Virus record (IMG/VR): IMGVR_UViG_3300042934_000619
Location: 1 to 64,000 of that record
From: a virus
Direction: 5' to 3' (one strand)
DNA length: 64,000 nucleotides
The position numbers and the translations under genes are program-made. Below are positions 6,051 to 62,756 of the stretch, in pieces. Each line of letters starts with the position of its first letter. Within the stretch, counting starts at the first letter, position 1. Under the pieces are notes generated by a model. That model made no database searches. It was not told where the DNA came from and saw only the letters and a program-made list of their open reading frames with translations.

Positions 6051-6647
6051 ATGAACGAGATCATCGAGGCGCACGGCAGGTACCGGGTGTACTTGAAGAT
6101 GGAGCCGGACTCCTACGACTTCAACCCTCGCACGTGGGACGACACCCCCCTGGCCAACGTCATCACCCCCACGCAGCAGCGGTACATCGACATCGACGAG
6201 GACGGCGGCCCGCTCCAGTACGGGTGGGACTACTACTCCACGCGCGCACTGGACTGCATCCGACGGACGGGCGCCGAGGACTTGTTCGTCCGCTGGGCGA
6301 AGATCTTCCACGGCGTGACGGTGATCGAGGACCGCCCGTACGACGGGGCCTGGGCCTTCTGGTACCTGATGCCGGACAAGGCGGCGGAGACCACGTGGTC
6401 GCCGGAGAAGCTGATCAACTTCGAGATCAAGCGCTACCGGGACTGGGCGCAGGGTGAGGTGTACGCCTACGTCATCGAGCGGTCGGTGAAGTGGGTCCCG
6501 GAGGAGGGGCAGGAGTTCGACGACGACGAGTCGACGCCGGAAACCATGATCACGTGGGAGACGGCCGACTCGTGCGGCGGATACATCGGCTACGACGAGG
6601 CCGAGAAGGCGGCGCTCGAAGCGTTCGCTGACTACAAGGAGGACTGA
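6051..6647 (+). CDS. hypothetical phage protein
   Basis: RBS GAGGAG; W..GEVY and DSCGGYIG motifs. Confidence 0.85.
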   Translation: MNEIIEAHGRYRVYLKMEPDSYDFNPRTWDDTPLANVITPTQQRYIDIDEDGGPLQYGWDYYSTRALDCIRRTGAEDLFVRWAKIFHGVTVIEDRPYDGAWAFWYLMPDKAAETTWSPEKLINFEIKRYRDWAQGEVYAYVIERSVKWVPEEGQEFDDDESTPETMITWETADSCGGYIGYDEAEKAALEAFADYKED

Positions 6648-6649
6648 GC

Positions 6650-6859
6650 ATGCGGGACACCGGACCGACCAAGTGCCAGAGCAAGGTGCACGACAACAAC
6701 CCGCCCGCCGCAGAGGGGACGTTCGATCTGTCCTGGCCGGTACTCGACGCCGACGCCGACGTGAAGCGGACTGCCTCAACGGTGAAGCGCCTGTGCCACG
6801 CCTGCCTGGACACCTTCCGATCGCACGGCGGGACCGCCTTCTACCACCGCTTCAACTGA
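6650..6859 (+). CDS. hypothetical protein
   Basis: RBS AAGGAGG. Confidence 0.7.
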   Translation: MRDTGPTKCQSKVHDNNPPAAEGTFDLSWPVLDADADVKRTASTVKRLCHACLDTFRSHGGTAFYHRFN

Positions 6860-37885: not shown

Positions 37886-38248
37886 ATGACGTTGTTGACG
37901 AAGGAGAAAAGCCACACCGGTGAGGAGTGGTTCCGCCTGCTCCTGAAGTACGAGCCGGAGGACATGACTTCCGTTCGGAGGGTGACCGGGGCGGGGCAGA
38001 TCGTCCCCGACACCTTCACGCTGGTGTGGAAGCGGTCTCTCGGCGAGCCGTGGAAGCGGGTGACCGGCGGTACGTACGGGTGTCTGGCCACCGGCCACGT
38101 CAAGGTTGAAGGACTGGCGGGCGCGCGTGGTCCCCGTCAGAACCGGGAGATCTTCACCCGGAATCTCGGTGAACTGAGGGGGTGGGCGGAGCGTCTGCCC
38201 GGCCTGCGACCGGCGATCGAGGAGGCGGAATCCCGGCTCCCGAAGTAG
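37886..38248 (+). CDS. hypothetical protein
   Basis: RBS AAGGAG. Confidence 0.7.
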   Translation: MTLLTKEKSHTGEEWFRLLLKYEPEDMTSVRRVTGAGQIVPDTFTLVWKRSLGEPWKRVTGGTYGCLATGHVKVEGLAGARGPRQNREIFTRNLGELRGWAERLPGLRPAIEEAESRLPK

Positions 38249-38269: not shown

Positions 38270-38300
38270 TTGACACAAGCTGTCGATTCGCTGCTAGTCT
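38270..38300 (+). promoter_or_regulatory. possible sigma70/HrdB promoter for the non-coding locus
   Basis: TTGACA-N19-TAGTCT (spacer slightly long). Confidence 0.45.
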
Positions 38301-38404
38301 GTCGGCATCTCGTCGGGGGACGAGAGTGCGGTAAACCTGCACAAGGAATCAACGCCTAGTGCAGAACTTCCCCACCCGGGCGCCGATCCGGGTGGGGATC
38401 TCAT

Positions 38405-38533
38405 CGGAGCGTGCGTCGGGTGACAACGGCGCGCAGTTGGACAGTTGAGGCATAAGACGACAGGGATAGCGCTCTGGTGCTAGCTGCTCCGTAGCGGGTC
38501 TCAGCGAGGGTGGTTCGAGTCCATCCGCTCCGG
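38405..38533 (+). ncRNA. tRNA-like RNA with enlarged anticodon domain
   Basis: Acceptor CGGAGCG/CGCTCCG, D-stem CGTC/GGCG, T-arm GGTGG-TTCGAGT-CCATC, 8-bp stem GCAGTTGG/CTAGCTGC enclosing 39 nt. Confidence 0.65.
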
Positions 38534-38727
38534 CTGCTTCTTCGTCTGTGGGGATGGGCGAGGGGGTCAGCACCACCTCTGCGAGTGGCTGAGGTCATTG
38601 AGGGTCGGCTCCGCCCAAGAAGTGCGCAAGGAGTCTCACCGTGTCCGCTGCTTGGCGGTGCCGGGCACGATGGAACGCGCACCCATTCATCCGGTGGGTG
38701 CGCGTTCCACGTACAGAAGGAGACAGT

Positions 38728-38973
38728 GTGAGTAATTCACACGCAGCAGAAGGTCTTATCGGTTCACTCGACACAACGCCATGGCTTTACCCTCTGGTTA
38801 TCGGGCTTGTCCTTATCTTCGTGTCCGCCCTTTTGTTTCGTGCGGCCGATCGTTTCACCAAGGGTGGCGCCAGTTCGGACGGATGCATCAACGTGCTGCT
38901 CGTCATGGTCGGGCTTGTACTGGGGGCCACGGGATTCATCTGCCTGTGCCTCGGACTCTTCGGGTGGTTCTGA
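38728..38973 (+). CDS. small two-TM membrane protein
   Basis: RBS AGAAGGAG, two hydrophobic helices. Confidence 0.7.
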   Translation: MSNSHAAEGLIGSLDTTPWLYPLVIGLVLIFVSALLFRAADRFTKGGASSDGCINVLLVMVGLVLGATGFICLCLGLFGWF

Positions 38974-39047: not shown

Positions 39048-40166
39048 GTGAAGGATCAGCAGAACTTCATCAACCACATAGCTCTGGTGCTCGACGCCTC
39101 CGGATCGATGGGGCGGCACAAGCGCAGCCTGATCAAGGTGGCCGACGAGCAGATCGCCTACCTCGCCCGGCGCTCCGAAGAGCTGAACCAGGAAACCCGG
39201 GTCACCATCTACACCTTCGACGACCAGGTGAAGTGCCTGGTCTACGACAAGGACGTGCTCCGCCTCCCCAGCATCAAGGATCTGTATGTGGTCGGCGGTA
39301 TGACCGCTCTGATCGACGCCACGATGCAGTCGCAGGACGACCTCGCGCACACCTGGGAAGGGTACGGCGACCACTCGTTCCTGACCTTCGTCCTCACCGA
39401 CGGCCTGGAGAACGCCAGCGGTACTACCGGCGGCTACTACCGAGAGTCCCGGGATGTCCTGGCCGAGCGCCTGACCAGCCGCCTGGAGGCAATGCCGGAC
39501 CACTGGACCGTGGCCGTGCTCGTGCCCGACCAGATGGCCAAGCGGGAGGCGATGGGCTTCGGGTTCCCGAAGGACAACATCGCCATCTGGGACACCAACT
39601 CCTCGGACGGCGTGGAGGAGGCGGTCAGCACCATCCGAACCGCCACTGACACGTACATGACCAACCGCACCAAGGGTGTGCGCGGGACCAAGACCCTGTT
39701 CGTCGGCGAGAACGTGGACGCCAGCGCGATCAAGAACGCCAAGCTCACGCCGCTGTCGAACAGCGACCGGAAGATCGTCGTCGTCGCCAAGACGAGGGAC
39801 ACCGAGTCCCTGTTCTTCGAGAAGCCGATCAACCGGGCCACGAAGACACGTCCTGTCCCGGACAAGGCGCTGCACGTGGAGATCAAGCCGTTCGTGGACG
39901 CCGCCTTCCCTCCCTACCGGGTGGGCATGGCGTACTACGAGCTGATCAAGTCCGAGCGTGTCACCGGCGACAAGCAGATCGCGGTGGTCGACGTGGACAC
40001 CAATCAGGTGTACGTCGGGGACGGTGCCCGGCAGCTCCTTGGGCTGCCTGCCGGTCAGTGCCGGGTGAAGCCGACGCTCAACCCGAACTACAAGGTCTTC
40101 GTCGAGTCGACGTCGCTGAACCGGCACCTGCGTGTCGGCTCGCAGCTTCTGCTGCTGACGAAGTGA
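39048..40166 (+). CDS. vWA-domain protein
   Basis: MIDAS LVLDASGSM, GGMTALIDA, LTDG.EN. Confidence 0.9.
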   Translation: MKDQQNFINHIALVLDASGSMGRHKRSLIKVADEQIAYLARRSEELNQETRVTIYTFDDQVKCLVYDKDVLRLPSIKDLYVVGGMTALIDATMQSQDDLAHTWEGYGDHSFLTFVLTDGLENASGTTGGYYRESRDVLAERLTSRLEAMPDHWTVAVLVPDQMAKREAMGFGFPKDNIAIWDTNSSDGVEEAVSTIRTATDTYMTNRTKGVRGTKTLFVGENVDASAIKNAKLTPLSNSDRKIVVVAKTRDTESLFFEKPINRATKTRPVPDKALHVEIKPFVDAAFPPYRVGMAYYELIKSERVTGDKQIAVVDVDTNQVYVGDGARQLLGLPAGQCRVKPTLNPNYKVFVESTSLNRHLRVGSQLLLLTK

Positions 40167-49421: not shown

Positions 49422-49522
49422 GGGCGGGTAGCTCAATGGGCGCATGAGGAGGTGGCCACCTTCGATTGCATATGCCGATGGTAGAGCGCCGGAGGTTGCG
49501 GGTTCGAGTCCCGTCCCGTCCA
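49422..49522 (+). ncRNA. tRNA-like RNA: Ala-identity acceptor, 49-nt D-loop, no anticodon arm
   Basis: GGGCGGG/CCCGTCC-A (G3-U70, A73), TAGCTC...GAGC, GCGGG-TTCGAGT-CCCGT; only 10 nt between D and T stems. Confidence 0.75.
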
Positions 49523-49582
49523 CGCAGGGTGCGCCAGAGATGTCTGCCGTCGGGTGGACGCGCACGGAGACCCGACACCGCG

Positions 49583-60080: not shown

Positions 60081-60217
60081 CTGTCTGGTGCGCAGACGAC
60101 GGATACTTCACTGTTAATGAAGAGGTCCGGGGTTCGAGTCCCCGCCCGCTGGTAAAAAGGTGGGTAGCTCAGTTGGTAGAGCACTTACGTTTCCGTTGTC
60201 GACTTGATCTCAGACAG
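60081..60217 (+). ncRNA. Y-RNA-like element 1 with permuted tRNA-Asn(GTT) domain
   Basis: Terminal stem CTGTCTG/CAGACAG; GTGCGCAG...TGATCT; arm order anticodon, T, acceptor hairpin, D. Confidence 0.85.
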
Positions 60218-60237
60218 TTCAATTCAAAAGTGCGCAA

Positions 60238-60312
60238 GCGTCCGGTGCGAAGGCAACGACGGCTACTTCTTTTGGTGAAATCACGCCGTCACGCCGTACT
60301 GATCTCGGACGC
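60238..60312 (+). ncRNA. Y-RNA-like element 2 (short, no tRNA domain)
   Basis: GCGTCCG/CGGACGC stem; GTGCGAAG, TACTTC, TGATCT. Confidence 0.75.
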
Positions 60313-60321
60313 GTACAACTT

Positions 60322-60461
60322 GTGCCTGGTGCGCAGATGAGGAGTTCTTCGCCTTGGGAGCGGGAGGTCGCGGGTTCAAATCCCGTTCGGTCGGCAGAGC
60401 TGACCGGTAGCTCAGTCTGGAAGAGCGCCTACGATCGCCTCGTCGACTTGATCTCAGGCAC
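60322..60461 (+). ncRNA. Y-RNA-like element 3 with permuted tRNA-Pro(TGG) domain
   Basis: GTGCCTG/CAGGCAC stem; TTCGC-CTTGGGA-GCGGG, T-arm, acceptor hairpin, D-arm. Confidence 0.85.
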
Positions 60462-60471
60462 GAAAATCAGA

Positions 60472-60592
60472 TGTCCGGTGCGCAGGACGACGCGTTCATC
60501 GATGGTTCGACCCCACCCGGGAGTCCCTCGCAAGAGGCTCGCTCCTGTTGCCCACTTGGGGGCAGCTCGCGTTTCCGATCTGATCTCGGACA
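60472..60592 (+). ncRNA. Y-RNA-like element 4 (YrlA-type, T/acceptor/D arms, no anticodon arm)
   Basis: TGTCCG/CGGACA stem; GGTTCGACCC T-loop; conserved flanking motifs. Confidence 0.78.
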
Positions 60593-60598
60593 GTACAA

Positions 60599-60750
60599 GG
60601 GTGCGTAGCTCAGAAGGTAGAGCGGCCCGAAAACGGACGGGCGGCGTGTCGAGACGGTTGCGGATGCACCGAATGGCTCTCGCAGGGTCTGTAGGGAAGC
60701 GCGTTTTCCAAGCTCGGCTCACGGCGCGGGTTCGAGTCCCGTCGCATCCA
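60599..60750 (+). ncRNA. tRNA-like RNA: Ala-identity acceptor, 8-nt anticodon loop, roughly 80-nt variable-arm insert
   Basis: GGGTGCG/CGCATCC-A (G3-U70, A73), TAGCTCAGAAGGTAGAGC, GCGGG-TTCGAGT-CCCGT. Confidence 0.75.
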
Positions 60751-60863
60751 CGGCACATAATCGGCTCCGACGTCCCTACTCGACTTCAGTCGTCGGAGAA
60801 ACGAGGACTCTGGCATTGACGATGGTTATGTCCTCGTTGCCCCGGCGCAAGCCGGGGTTACCC

Positions 60864-60938
60864 GGGAGGCCCTGGCCAGGCACACGGCTAAAACACCGGC
60901 GCACCCGGTGCGAGACGGTTCAAGTCCGTCAACTCCCA
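60864..60938 (+). tRNA. degenerate tRNA-Cys(GCA)-like element
   Basis: CACCG-GCGCACC-CGGTG, GACGG-TTCAAGT-CCGTC; acceptor only 5 bp. Confidence 0.4.
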
Positions 60939-60940
60939 CT

Positions 60941-61027
60941 GGTTCCTGGTGCGAAGCCACCACGGGTACTTCATTTCTCTCTCAAAGAAACCCGAACCCC
61001 GTATCGGCACCCCTGATCTCAGGAACC
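60941..61027 (+). ncRNA. Y-RNA-like element 5 (short, pyrimidine-rich loop)
   Basis: GGTTCCTG/CAGGAACC stem; GTGCGAAG, TACTTC, TGATCT; immediately upstream of ro. Confidence 0.78.
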
Positions 61028-61073: not shown

Positions 61074-62756
61074 ATGGCGCGCTTCAACTCGCGTGGACAC
61101 CGGGCGAAGCCTGCGGTGGCGACGGTAAGCAGTCCGATCGGTACTGCCACGAAGAAGGCGAACACCCGTACGTTCGAAGGCGGCGCGGGATACACGCGTG
61201 ATGCCAAGACGGAGCTGTTCCTGCGTGCGACCGGTGCGTTCCACGGCGGCGAGGGCAGCTTCTACGAGTCCGCCGACAAGCGCGACAACCGGCTTCGTGA
61301 GCTGGTACGTACGATCGCGATCGAAGACCCGGACTGGGGATTCGAGTTCGCGCGCTGGCTCCGGTCCGAGGGTCACATGCGCACGGCATCGCTGATGTTC
61401 GCCGTCGAGTACGTGCACGAGCGACTCGATGCGGAAGCGCAGGAGCCGCGCACCACCAAGTACACCAACCGTCAGATCATCGACGTCGTATGCCAGCGTC
61501 CCGACGAGCCTGGCGAGATCCTCGCGATCTGGACGGCGTGGTACGGGCGGAACATCCCGCAGTCGGTCAAGCGCGGCGTCGCCGACGCGGTTCGGCGTCT
61601 GTACAGCGAGCGCTCGCTGCTCAAGTACGACACGGACTCGAAGGCGTACCGCTTCGCCGACGTGCTGGATCTGACGCACCCGACGCCGTCCCCCGAGAAG
61701 GCCGCATGGCAGGGCCTGCTGTTCTCGTACGCCCTCAACCGGCGGCACGGACGTGGGGATGACATCCCCAGCACGCTGGATATCATCCGCAACAACGCCT
61801 CGTTCCGAGCGCGGGCGGCTGAGACGCACTCGTTGCTGTGCTCGCCGGACGCTCTGCGTGCAGCGGGCATGACGTGGGAGGACGCGCTGTCCCTCGCGGG
61901 CCAAGTAGGCGTCGACAAGCGCAAGGTCTGGGAGGCCATGATCCCCTCCATGGGGATCATGGCGCTGATCCGCAACCTGCGGAACTTCGACCAGGCTGGC
62001 GTCTCCGACGAGGTGGCCATGACGGTCATGGAGCGCCTGGCCAACCCCGAGGAGATCGCCCGGTCCAAGCAGTTCCCGTTCCGGTTCCTCGCCGCGCACC
62101 GCGCGACCAAGGACTCCCTGCGGTGGGCGTGGCCGCTGGAGCAGGCGCTTGGTCACTCGCTGGTCAACGTCCCCCGGCTCGACGGCCGGACGCTGATCCT
62201 CGTCGACCGGTCGCCGTCCATGTTCCCGGAGTACGACCACTGGTTCCCGACGCTGAAGAAGTCGGACATCAGCCGCGCCGACCAGGCTGCGGTGTTCGGC
62301 GCCGCGCTGGCCGTCCGTGCAGAGCAGCCGACGCTCGTGGAGTTCGGCGGCGGCTCGCGGGTGATCACCTTCCAGCGCGGTACGTCCGTGCTGAAGCTGG
62401 TCGACAAGTTCTACCGGGACCCGGGTACGGACATCCCGAGCGCGGTGAAGAAGCATTACGACGGGCACGACCGGGTCGTCATCCTCACCGACGAGCAGAC
62501 CCGCCCCGGGTCCCTTCCGTCGAACATGTGGCGGAGCTACGGTGGCATGCGTGAGACGGAGGTCAACGACCTCGTCCCGAAGCACGTCCCTGTATTCATG
62601 TGGAATTTCGCCGGTTACTCGGCGGCGGCCATGCCGTCCGGGAACGAGGCGCGGTTCCACCTCGGCGGACTCACCGACAAGGCATTCCAACTCATTCCGA
62701 TTCTGGAATCCGGAGTGAATGGCAGCTGGCCCTGGGAACTGGACAGCACACCCTGA
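61074..62756 (+). CDS. rsr: Ro60/Rsr TROVE-vWA RNA-binding protein
   Basis: FYESA..R, WLR....MRT, QRPDEPGE, KRGVADAV, LKYD, L.HP.P, ALIRNLRNF, SKQFPFRF; C-terminal vWA (LVDRS.SM, GTD, LTDEQ). Confidence 0.93.
   Translation: MARFNSRGHRAKPAVATVSSPIGTATKKANTRTFEGGAGYTRDAKTELFLRATGAFHGGEGSFYESADKRDNRLRELVRTIAIEDPDWGFEFARWLRSEGHMRTASLMFAVEYVHERLDAEAQEPRTTKYTNRQIIDVVCQRPDEPGEILAIWTAWYGRNIPQSVKRGVADAVRRLYSERSLLKYDTDSKAYRFADVLDLTHPTPSPEKAAWQGLLFSYALNRRHGRGDDIPSTLDIIRNNASFRARAAETHSLLCSPDALRAAGMTWEDALSLAGQVGVDKRKVWEAMIPSMGIMALIRNLRNFDQAGVSDEVAMTVMERLANPEEIARSKQFPFRFLAAHRATKDSLRWAWPLEQALGHSLVNVPRLDGRTLILVDRSPSMFPEYDHWFPTLKKSDISRADQAAVFGAALAVRAEQPTLVEFGGGSRVITFQRGTSVLKLVDKFYRDPGTDIPSAVKKHYDGHDRVVILTDEQTRPGSLPSNMWRSYGGMRETEVNDLVPKHVPVFMWNFAGYSAAAMPSGNEARFHLGGLTDKAFQLIPILESGVNGSWPWELDSTP

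What the first reader, a model, noticed from the sequence alone, without database searches (positions are those of the whole stretch)
38405..38533. tRNA scaffold with an expanded anticodon domain
Seen: intact acceptor, D and T arms, but the anticodon arm is an 8-bp stem enclosing 39 nt, and the 21-nt variable region can form two mini-hairpins. It is too short for a self-splicing intron. Inference: a natural version of the tRNA-scaffold trick, presenting a cargo loop on a stable, RNase P-processed body.
Basis: partly seen in the sequence, partly recalled or inferred. Interest (0 to 1): 0.7.

Follow-up and report, generated by a model that had tools for sequence, protein, structure and literature searches.

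The report
Anticodon-less tRNA-Pro-derived phage RNA
A high-GC soil phage carries a conserved small RNA gene that keeps the top half of a proline tRNA (acceptor stem, T arm, D-loop sequence) but has no anticodon loop, so it is most likely a non-decoding tRNA mimic and not a tRNA, an intron-bearing tRNA or a cargo-presenting scaffold.

Summary
The tRNA-like ends are real. Window 38405-38533(+) has a 7-bp acceptor stem and a 5-bp T arm with a UUCGAGU loop. The same RNA occurs in three other phage contigs (L006, L009, L017), each upstream of a homologous vWA gene. Base pairs are kept through compensatory changes (99% paired; 12 of 27 pairs changed on both sides).

The "D arm" is a 7-bp hairpin on a 17-nt insertion. 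The 8-bp "anticodon stem" is perfect only in this phage. It crosses a central stem (pos 40-47/94-101) that covaries at 7 of 8 pairs. The "variable region" is largely that stem's 3' strand.

The central arm varies from 41 to 68 nt and shares no motif, so no conserved cargo exists. The acceptor (C1-G72, mostly A73) matches tRNA-Pro(UGG).

It is not in Rfam. It lacks the Ro60 handle of this phage's five Y RNAs, and it has no splice or tag features.

Best reading: a processed, non-decoding tRNA mimic whose partner is unknown. It is a new variant of a known kind, of moderate interest. The scan has noted tRNA mimics in other Ro60 phages, but not this family.

The parts
38270..38300 (+). Putative promoter: TTGACA (38270-75), 19-nt spacer, TAGTCT (38295-300)
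   Evidence: Both hexamers are conserved in the L006 homologue. The strict E. coli-type scan did not call it, so its function is inferred.
38309..38324 (+). Leader hairpin 1 (6-bp stem, GGGG loop)
   Evidence: Identical in L006.
38370..38397 (+). Leader hairpin 2 (10-bp G+C-rich stem), ending 7 nt before the tRNA-like 5' end
   Evidence: Read from the sequence. L006 has a different sequence that can also pair at the same place.
38405..38411 (+). Acceptor stem, 5' strand (CGGAGCG)
   Evidence: Pairs with 38526-38532. Invariant apart from one A-U/G-U change in 4 members. Identical to canonical tRNA-Pro(UGG) acceptors.
38412..38433 (+).
   Evidence: 7 pairs, 100% paired in 4 members, 2 pairs changed on both sides. 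It is a 17-nt insertion relative to tRNA-Pro.
38433..38444 (+). Conserved single strand GCAGUUGGACAG: homologue of the tRNA D-stem 5' strand plus D loop (the GG corresponds to G18 G19)
   Evidence: GCA, UGGA and AG are invariant in 4 members. MAFFT aligns it to the D arm of canonical tRNA-Pro, and to L217, where a real D stem closes it.
38444..38505 (+). Central arm (pos 40-101). The base stem 40-47/94-101 is conserved; the interior is variable.
   Evidence: 8-bp base stem, 7 pairs changed on both sides. Arm length is 62/68/49/41 nt in the four members, with no shared apical motif.
38509..38525 (+). T arm (GGUGG / UUCGAGU / CCAUC)
   Evidence: 3 of 5 pairs changed on both sides. Loop GGUUCGARUCC is invariant.
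38526..38533 (+). Acceptor stem 3' strand plus discriminator (G here, A in the three relatives). No encoded CCA.
38568..38629 (+). Conserved spacer downstream of the tRNA-like RNA (same transcript?)
   Evidence: Blocks are shared with L006 and L005, and weakly with L009. Function unknown.
38672..38708 (+). 14-bp hairpin with a 9-nt UUCAUCCGG loop, 19 nt before the next start codon. It is either a terminator without a U tract or an acceptor/T-arm-like minihelix.
   Evidence: Read from the sequence. In L005, L006 and L009 this position holds a second, different tRNA-like RNA.
38728..38973 (+). Small ORF (81 aa, hydrophobic) with a GAAGGAG ribosome-binding site
   Evidence: No family match.
39048..40166 (+). 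vWA-domain protein gene: the conserved neighbour used to find relatives

Best explanation
This is a stand-alone gene for a non-decoding tRNA mimic that descends from tRNA-Pro(UGG).

Proposed life cycle. The RNA is transcribed from its own promoter about 100 nt upstream, with a structured leader. The roughly 129-nt RNA would then be cut out by host RNase P at C1 and by 3' processing after the discriminator, and CCA would be added by the host enzyme.

Fold. It forms a four-way junction made of: the acceptor stem; an inserted hairpin H1; a long, evolutionarily plastic central arm that replaces the anticodon and variable arms; and the T arm. The conserved D-loop-like strand (with GG) lies between H1 and the central arm. 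From there it can dock on the T loop and rebuild the tRNA elbow, much as the unclosed D-loop analogue does in the tRNA-like domain of tmRNA.

Function. It has no anticodon loop, so it cannot decode. The parts under selection are the acceptor sequence and the elbow. I therefore propose that it acts in trans by occupying or recruiting a factor that reads the acceptor/elbow half of tRNA-Pro, as a decoy or an adaptor.

Shown: the conservation, the covariation, the tRNA-Pro ancestry and the absence of decoding features. Inferred: transcription, processing, elbow formation and the trans-acting role.
For: Four members sit in divergent phages (vWA protein only 48-61% identical) and keep all four helices: 99% of cells paired against 33-45% when partners are slid, and 12 of 27 pairs changed on both sides against 5.4 in shuffles.

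The acceptor is almost invariant, with C1-G72 and A73 in 3 of 4 members. Among the deduplicated canonical tRNAs in the fetched loci, the three whose acceptor matched at 13 or more of 15 positions were all tRNA-Pro(UGG). That set is biased, because many of the loci were fetched with this acceptor as the pattern.

The conserved strand aligns to the D arm of tRNA-Pro. L217 shows the same motif closed by a normal D stem.

The promoter hexamers and leader hairpin 1 are conserved in L006.

There is no conserved protein frame across the element.

The phage also encodes Ro60 with five Y RNAs and two further tRNA-like RNAs, so it invests heavily in tRNA mimicry.
Against: There is no expression, processing or binding data.

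Only four members were found, so covariation cannot be given a phylogeny-aware significance.

The family is patchy. The closest vWA relative (L005, 79%) and L007 (61%) lack it in the 0.9-1.7 kb upstream that is held, so it is dispensable.

L009's H1 loop lacks GG, and U8 is paired in H1, so the tertiary tRNA core is not fully tRNA-like.

This phage's copy has G73, not A73.

No candidate protein partner is identified. The adjacent vWA protein has an ordinary vWA fold with no known RNA link.
Confidence: 0.5

Rival explanations
1. It is a cis-acting processing or stability element. The tRNA-like fold serves only as an RNase P/RNase Z 'punctuation' site that trims the long leader and sets the ends of the downstream RNA or of the small-ORF/vWA mRNA. 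The excised RNA itself would have no function.
For: In many relatives the vWA gene lies inside tRNA arrays: 32 of the 83 relatives' loci scanned have tRNAs, up to 17 per locus. The gene is therefore normally made from tRNA-containing precursors. The element is flanked by conserved leader and trailer segments. In L005, L006 and L009 a second tRNA-like RNA lies between it and the gene.
Against: Processing needs only an acceptor/T-arm minihelix. That does not explain the near-invariant acceptor sequence, the conserved D-loop strand or the maintained H1 and central stems. In L017 the element is 2.4 kb from the vWA gene.
Confidence: 0.2
2. One reading: a tRNA scaffold that displays a functional cargo loop in an expanded anticodon arm.
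For: In this phage an 8/8 stem (29-36/76-83) encloses 39 nt. The ends are tRNA-like.
Against: That stem is not kept in the relatives and it crosses the covarying stem. The inserted arm has no conserved sequence or length. The 'D arm' is an insertion.
Confidence: 0.08
3. It is a chargeable tRNA-like RNA: prolylated through its tRNA-Pro acceptor and used off the normal decoding path, in a tmRNA-like or transferase-substrate role.
For: C1-G72 with A73 in 3 of 4 members and a tmRNA-like layout, with an unclosed D-loop analogue and a long helix in place of the anticodon stem.
Against: From general knowledge, bacterial ProRS depends strongly on anticodon G35/G36, which are not presented here. There is no G3-U70, no conserved open frame or stop in the central arm (read from the sequences), no tmRNA hit, and this copy has G73.
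Confidence: 0.07
4. It is a decaying tRNA-Pro pseudogene, or a chance tRNA-like fold.
For: tRNA finders and Rfam reject it. Acceptor plus T arm occurs by chance about 0.3 times per genome. Its distribution is patchy.
Against: Compensatory changes occur in three helices across four divergent phages. The promoter and leader are conserved.
Confidence: 0.08
5. It is a functional tRNA-Pro interrupted by an intron that is spliced out.
For: ARAGORN, with introns allowed and a relaxed threshold, reads tRNA-Pro(tgg) with a 42-nt intron after position 37.
Against: The called anticodon UGG is the G18G19 region of the D-loop homologue. No 5-bp anticodon stem with a 7-nt loop is conserved. The insert is far too short for group I, and Rfam gives no intron hit. 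The host is bacterial, probably an actinomycete, and the phage has no RtcB ligase.
Confidence: 0.02
6. It is a Ro60 partner (Y RNA) in mirror-image layout, with the Ro60 handle placed in the central arm.
For: The phage encodes Ro60 plus five handle-bearing Y RNAs. The scan reported such a layout in another phage (e1-5751013).
Against: Profile HMMs of both handle strands recover all five Y RNAs, but give no hit in 38405-38533 among the 30 best plus-strand hits listed for each half. The partial look-alikes in this copy are not conserved in the relatives. The element lies 22.5 kb from the Ro60 gene.
Confidence: 0.05

Closest known systems
YrlA-type Y RNAs of bacteria and mycobacteriophages (Rfam RF02553; Chen et al. 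2014, PMC4201824)
   Same: A non-decoding RNA with a tRNA-derived T arm, D-loop features and acceptor-like stem. It is found in a phage that also carries Ro60, and its tRNA-binding partner is unknown.
   Different: YrlA is circularly permuted: its acceptor is closed by a loop and its ends sit in the Ro60-binding stem. This RNA has the normal tRNA order with open acceptor ends, no Ro60 handle, no RF02553 hit, and it is not next to Ro60.
tRNA-like domain of tmRNA
   Same: Acceptor stem plus T arm, a D-loop analogue that is not closed by a D stem, and a long helix where the anticodon stem would be. tmRNA is processed by RNase P (PMC3985003 abstract).
   Different: No G3-U70 alanine identity, no pseudoknots, no tag reading frame, only about 130 nt, and an extra hairpin H1. 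No tmRNA call by ARAGORN or Rfam.
Canonical tRNA-Pro(UGG), e.g. L177:6843-6917(-) and L212:4073-4146(-)
   Same: Identical or near-identical acceptor stem. A73 in 3 of 4 members. Similar D-loop sequence, T loop and GAG/GGG junction.
   Different: A 17-nt insertion after position 9, no closed D stem, and the anticodon arm and variable loop replaced by a 41-68-nt arm.
Stable tRNA-like RNAs in phage T4's tRNA cluster (species 1 and 2, rnaC/rnaD). Cited from memory, not checked here.
   Same: Phage-encoded RNAs of about 120-140 nt with unknown function, associated with tRNA genes and tRNA-processing enzymes.
   Different: No sequence relation was tested. Different host phylum.
Engineered tRNA scaffold (insert in the anticodon stem), and natural tRNA-like processing modules (mascRNA, gammaherpesvirus tRNA-miRNA units). 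Cited from general knowledge.
   Same: The tRNA-like ends could give processing and stability.
   Different: Those keep an intact cloverleaf body or serve to release a neighbouring RNA. Here the D arm is remodelled and the insert is not conserved.

Membership tests
Canonical tRNA (Rfam RF00005) | 7-bp acceptor stem and 5-bp T arm with a T-psi-C-type loop | tested here: met
Canonical tRNA (Rfam RF00005) | 3-4-bp D stem closing a loop with G18 G19 | tested here: not met
   The D-loop homologue is present, but its flanks pair elsewhere, in H1 and in the central stem.
Canonical tRNA (Rfam RF00005) | 5-bp anticodon stem with a 7-nt loop | tested here: not met
   None is conserved.
Canonical tRNA (Rfam RF00005) | Reaches the family's gathering score or the default tRNA-finder threshold | tested here: not met
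   No RF00005 hit even at E<=10. ARAGORN's default run misses it. The homologous loci also give no Rfam hit.
YrlA / Y RNA (RF02553) | Ro60-binding handle helix (here GGUGCG[A/C]AG ... UGAUCUC) | tested here: not met
   Motif counts.
YrlA / Y RNA (RF02553) | Permuted order T arm - closed acceptor - D arm; gene next to Ro60 | tested here: not met
   The order is the normal tRNA order, and the element lies 22.5 kb from the TROVE gene.
tmRNA | G3-U70 alanine identity and a tag reading frame with a stop | tested here: not met
   G3-C70. No shared frame or stop in the central arms (sequences). No ARAGORN or Rfam tmRNA call.
tmRNA | tRNA-like domain with an unclosed D-loop analogue and a long helix replacing the anticodon stem | tested here: met
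   This is a resemblance of layout only.
Intron-containing tRNA (group I or bulge-helix-bulge) | A mature cloverleaf is restored after removing a defined insert, and a splicing signal or ribozyme core is present | tested here: not met
   No conserved anticodon arm remains after any excision. The insert is 41-68 nt. No intron family hit. No RtcB.
tRNA-Pro lineage (ancestry, not function) | C1-G72 with A73 and a tRNA-Pro-type acceptor sequence | tested here: met
   This copy has G73.
tRNA-Pro lineage (ancestry, not function) | Aminoacylation by ProRS | not testable with these tools
   Needs a biochemical assay.

The most novel reading that the evidence does not exclude
This would be a previously undescribed class of actinophage RNA: tRNA-Pro-derived 'top-half' mimics that act as decoys or adaptors for a host factor reading the acceptor stem and elbow. 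Such a factor could be an acceptor-end-modifying abortive-infection toxin, a tRNA-Pro-specific editing or elongation factor, or an unknown partner of the neighbouring vWA protein. The plastic central arm would serve only as a spacer.
Probability: 0.15. Interest if true: 0.8.

Novelty: new variant of a known kind. Interest (0 to 1): 0.45.

Why it matters
Phage tRNA genes are increasingly seen as counter-measures to host attacks on tRNA, and Ro60/Y-RNA systems use tRNA mimicry for unknown partners. A conserved mimic that keeps only the acceptor/elbow half of one specific tRNA points to a factor that reads that half. It gives a compact, testable probe of about 130 nt for finding that factor. It also shows how a tRNA gene can be remodelled (D stem opened, anticodon arm replaced) while staying under selection, and why such genes escape tRNA finders and Rfam.

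Tried and rejected
- Nucleotide searches of the locus against 50,697 phage records found no match.
- An exact T-arm/acceptor pattern in IMG/VR found no match. Relaxed patterns returned mostly ordinary tRNA-Pro genes, prophage ends, and a few unrelated expanded tRNA-like RNAs (L205, L209, L210, L217). The only true new copy was L207, which is identical to L006.
- The IMG/VR relatives of the vWA protein (L002-L004, 47-48% identity) have no homologue of the RNA.
The closest protein relatives P0002-P0005 could therefore not be fetched directly.
- The Ro60-handle test was negative.
- No RtcB or CCA-adding enzyme is encoded by the phage.
- A TROVE search of the L207 record found nothing, but that record is only 31% complete. 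The contigs behind L006, L009, L017 and L005 are not held.
- The vWA protein's fold is a generic vWA domain plus a beta-rich domain, with no RNA-binding lead.
- Chromosomal vWA homologues (L266-L269) showed no associated tRNA-like RNA.
- The tmRNA reading was rejected: one frame of this copy's central arm ends ...LAAP-stop, but this is not conserved in L006.
- No paper describing this family was found in three literature searches.

Full report
**Context.** The window is the first 64 kb of a complete 102,442-bp virus record with direct terminal repeats and about 65% G+C. Its proteins resemble those of Streptomyces and Mycobacterium phages only distantly. It encodes a primase-polymerase, a family A DNA polymerase, helicases, a GT2 glycosyltransferase and a TROVE-domain Ro60 protein at 61074-62756. 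Five Y-RNA modules share a GGUGCG...GAUCUC handle and lie just upstream of Ro60. Two of them hit Rfam YrlA below threshold. The candidate lies 22.5 kb away from these, in a 480-nt gap between an ORF ending at 38248 and a small ORF starting at 38728. A vWA-domain gene follows at 39048-40166.

**The observation.** At 38405-38533 the plus strand has a 7-bp acceptor stem, a 5-bp T arm with loop UUCGAGU, and a discriminator G. Default ARAGORN and Rfam do not see a tRNA here. Rfam finds nothing even at E<=10. ARAGORN reports tRNA-Pro(tgg) with a 42-nt 'intron' only when introns are allowed and the threshold is lowered to 95%. A perfect acceptor plus T arm arises by chance about 0.33 times per genome of this composition, against six observed. 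The copy alone is therefore suggestive, not decisive.

**Relatives.**
- Nucleotide searches against phage records and simple IMG/VR patterns found nothing.
- The intergenic region aligns to L006 at 68% identity, and nhmmer finds the tRNA-like part there.
- Covariance models built from the hits recover four members: this window (136-144 bits), L006:2256-2390 (148-160 bits; L207 is the same virus in IMG/VR), L009:2264-2378 (60-109 bits) and L017:498-604 (47 bits).
- All four lie 0.6-2.4 kb upstream of the vWA homologue.
- The family is single-copy in this genome. It is absent from the sequence held upstream of the vWA gene in L005 (79% identical protein) and L007, so it is patchy.
- No homologous locus reaches any Rfam gathering score.
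- No reading frame is conserved across the element.

**Structure from comparison.** On the model-guided alignment of the four members, 99% of base-pair cells are standard pairs, against 33-45% when partners are slid by 1-3 columns. Twelve of 27 pairs have changes on both sides, against 5.4 in shuffles.
- The acceptor stem is almost invariant.
- A hairpin H1 (pos 8-14/23-29) has two pairs changed on both sides.
- The T arm has three such pairs.
- A central stem (pos 40-47/94-101) has seven of eight.
- This central stem is also the minimum-free-energy fold in each member.
- It begins right after a conserved single strand (GCA-N-Y-UGGA-M-AG, pos 29-40) and ends three nucleotides (GAG) before the T arm.

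The alignment was fitted to the model and has only four rows, so these numbers describe consistency, not a formal significance.

- The 8-bp 'anticodon stem' (29-36/76-83) is perfect here, a result that 18 of 500 shuffles also reach. In L006, L009 and L017 the best partner for the same segment is no better than in shuffled sequence. It also crosses the covarying central stem.
- The '21-nt variable region' is largely the 3' strand of that central stem.
- The 'D arm' is H1. An alignment with canonical tRNA-Pro(UGG) genes (L177, L212) shows H1 is a 17-nt insertion after position 9. The conserved single strand aligns with the D-stem 5' strand and the D loop, including G18 G19.
- An unrelated expanded tRNA-like RNA, L217:11159-11272, has the same AGUUGGACAG motif closed by a normal D stem.
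- The UGG that ARAGORN read as a proline anticodon is therefore the D-loop GG region.

**Ancestry.** The acceptor (C1-G72, G2-C71, G3-C70, A4-U69...) is identical to that of canonical tRNA-Pro(UGG) genes. Three of the four members have A73. Among the deduplicated canonical tRNAs in the fetched loci, the three that matched this acceptor at 13 or more of 15 positions were all tRNA-Pro(UGG). That set is biased, because many of the loci were fetched with this acceptor as the pattern. The RNA is best described as a remodelled tRNA-Pro: the D stem is opened by an inserted hairpin, and the anticodon and variable arms are replaced by one long arm.

**Is there a cargo?** The central arms are 62, 68, 49 and 41 nt. 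They fold differently and share no apical motif. Selection acts on the tRNA-like half, not on the insert.

**Tests of specific functions.**
- Ro60 partner: profile HMMs of both strands of this phage's Y-RNA handle recover all five Y RNAs. Neither gives a hit in the candidate among its 30 best plus-strand hits.
- Spliced tRNA: no conserved anticodon arm, an insert far too short for group I, no intron hit, and no RtcB.
- tmRNA-like: no G3-U70, no conserved frame, no tmRNA call.
- The phage has no CCA-adding enzyme of its own, so maturation would depend on the host.
- The neighbouring vWA protein models as an ordinary vWA domain plus a beta-rich domain.
- In many relatives this gene sits inside tRNA arrays of up to 17 genes. 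This explains how a tRNA-Pro gene could have been the raw material, and it keeps a processing role in play.

**Transcription unit.** TTGACA-19 nt-TAGTCT at 38270-38300 and the following hairpin are conserved in L006, although the strict consensus scan finds no promoter or terminator. A conserved spacer (38568-38629) and a 14-bp hairpin (38672-38708) follow. In L005, L006 and L009 the latter position is occupied by a second, different tRNA-like RNA.

**Verdict.** This is a real, conserved, structured RNA gene: an anticodon-less tRNA-Pro derivative that standard tools miss. Its most likely mode of action is as a processed, trans-acting mimic of the acceptor/elbow half of tRNA (confidence about 0.5). 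A purely cis-acting processing role is the main rival. No paper describing the family was found. Earlier notes of this scan describe tRNA mimics in other Ro60 phages, but none matches this sequence.

Noticed in passing
window 60081-61026 and 61074-62756: A Ro60/TROVE gene is preceded by five Y-RNA modules that share a GGUGCG[A/C]AG ... UGAUCUC handle. Two carry permuted tRNA-like domains and hit Rfam YrlA at 41.9 and 35.8 bits, below the gathering score of 69.
   Followed up: partly
window 49422-49523: tRNA-like RNA (Rfam tRNA 39.4 bits) with a G3-U70/A73 acceptor. A roughly 45-nt insert sits inside the D loop and almost nothing sits where the anticodon arm should be. ARAGORN calls it only with introns allowed.
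   Followed up: no
window 60599-60751: tRNA-like RNA (Rfam tRNA 38.9 bits) with normal D and T arms, a G3-U70/A73 acceptor, and 95 nt where the model expects 17. It lies between the Y RNAs and Ro60.
   Followed up: no
L005:638-745, L006:2494-2582, L009:2528-2633, L010:5949-6102, L017:742-898: A second family of expanded tRNA-like RNAs, 89-157 nt long. The acceptor is GGACCNG-like (variants GAGCCGG in L006, GAACCAG in L017) and the T arm is GCGGG/CCCGU (CCCGA in L005). L005 ends in an encoded CCA; L010 ends ...CCA only by counting the last two acceptor bases. It accompanies the vWA gene in relatives. In this window the corresponding place holds only the hairpin at 38672-38708.
   Followed up: partly
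L024, L025, L028, L033, L038, L046, L055, L060, L074, L078, L080, L081 and others: In many relatives the vWA-protein gene is embedded in large tRNA arrays, with 8-17 tRNA genes within 3 kb. This is an unexplained but consistent association between this protein family and tRNA genes.
   Followed up: partly
window 38568-38629: A spacer downstream of the tRNA-like RNA is conserved in L006 and L005, and weakly in L009. It contains a GUCAUUGAGGG block and a GUGCG-type block. Function unknown.
   Followed up: partly
L217:11159-11272, L205:3633-3765(-), L209:6884-7040, L210:4323-4451(-): Other IMG/VR phages of varied G+C carry tRNA-Pro-like acceptors and T arms, with 40-80 nt of extra sequence in the middle and no vWA or Ro60 homologue nearby. 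Expanded tRNA-Pro-like RNAs may be more widespread than this family.
   Followed up: partly
window 6586-6741 (+); L271:15209-15226 (genome 99209-99226): My scan found one more perfect acceptor plus T-arm combination at 6586-6741, and a lone weak match (E 0.06) to the 5' half of the Y-RNA handle near the right end of the genome. Both may be chance.
   Followed up: no
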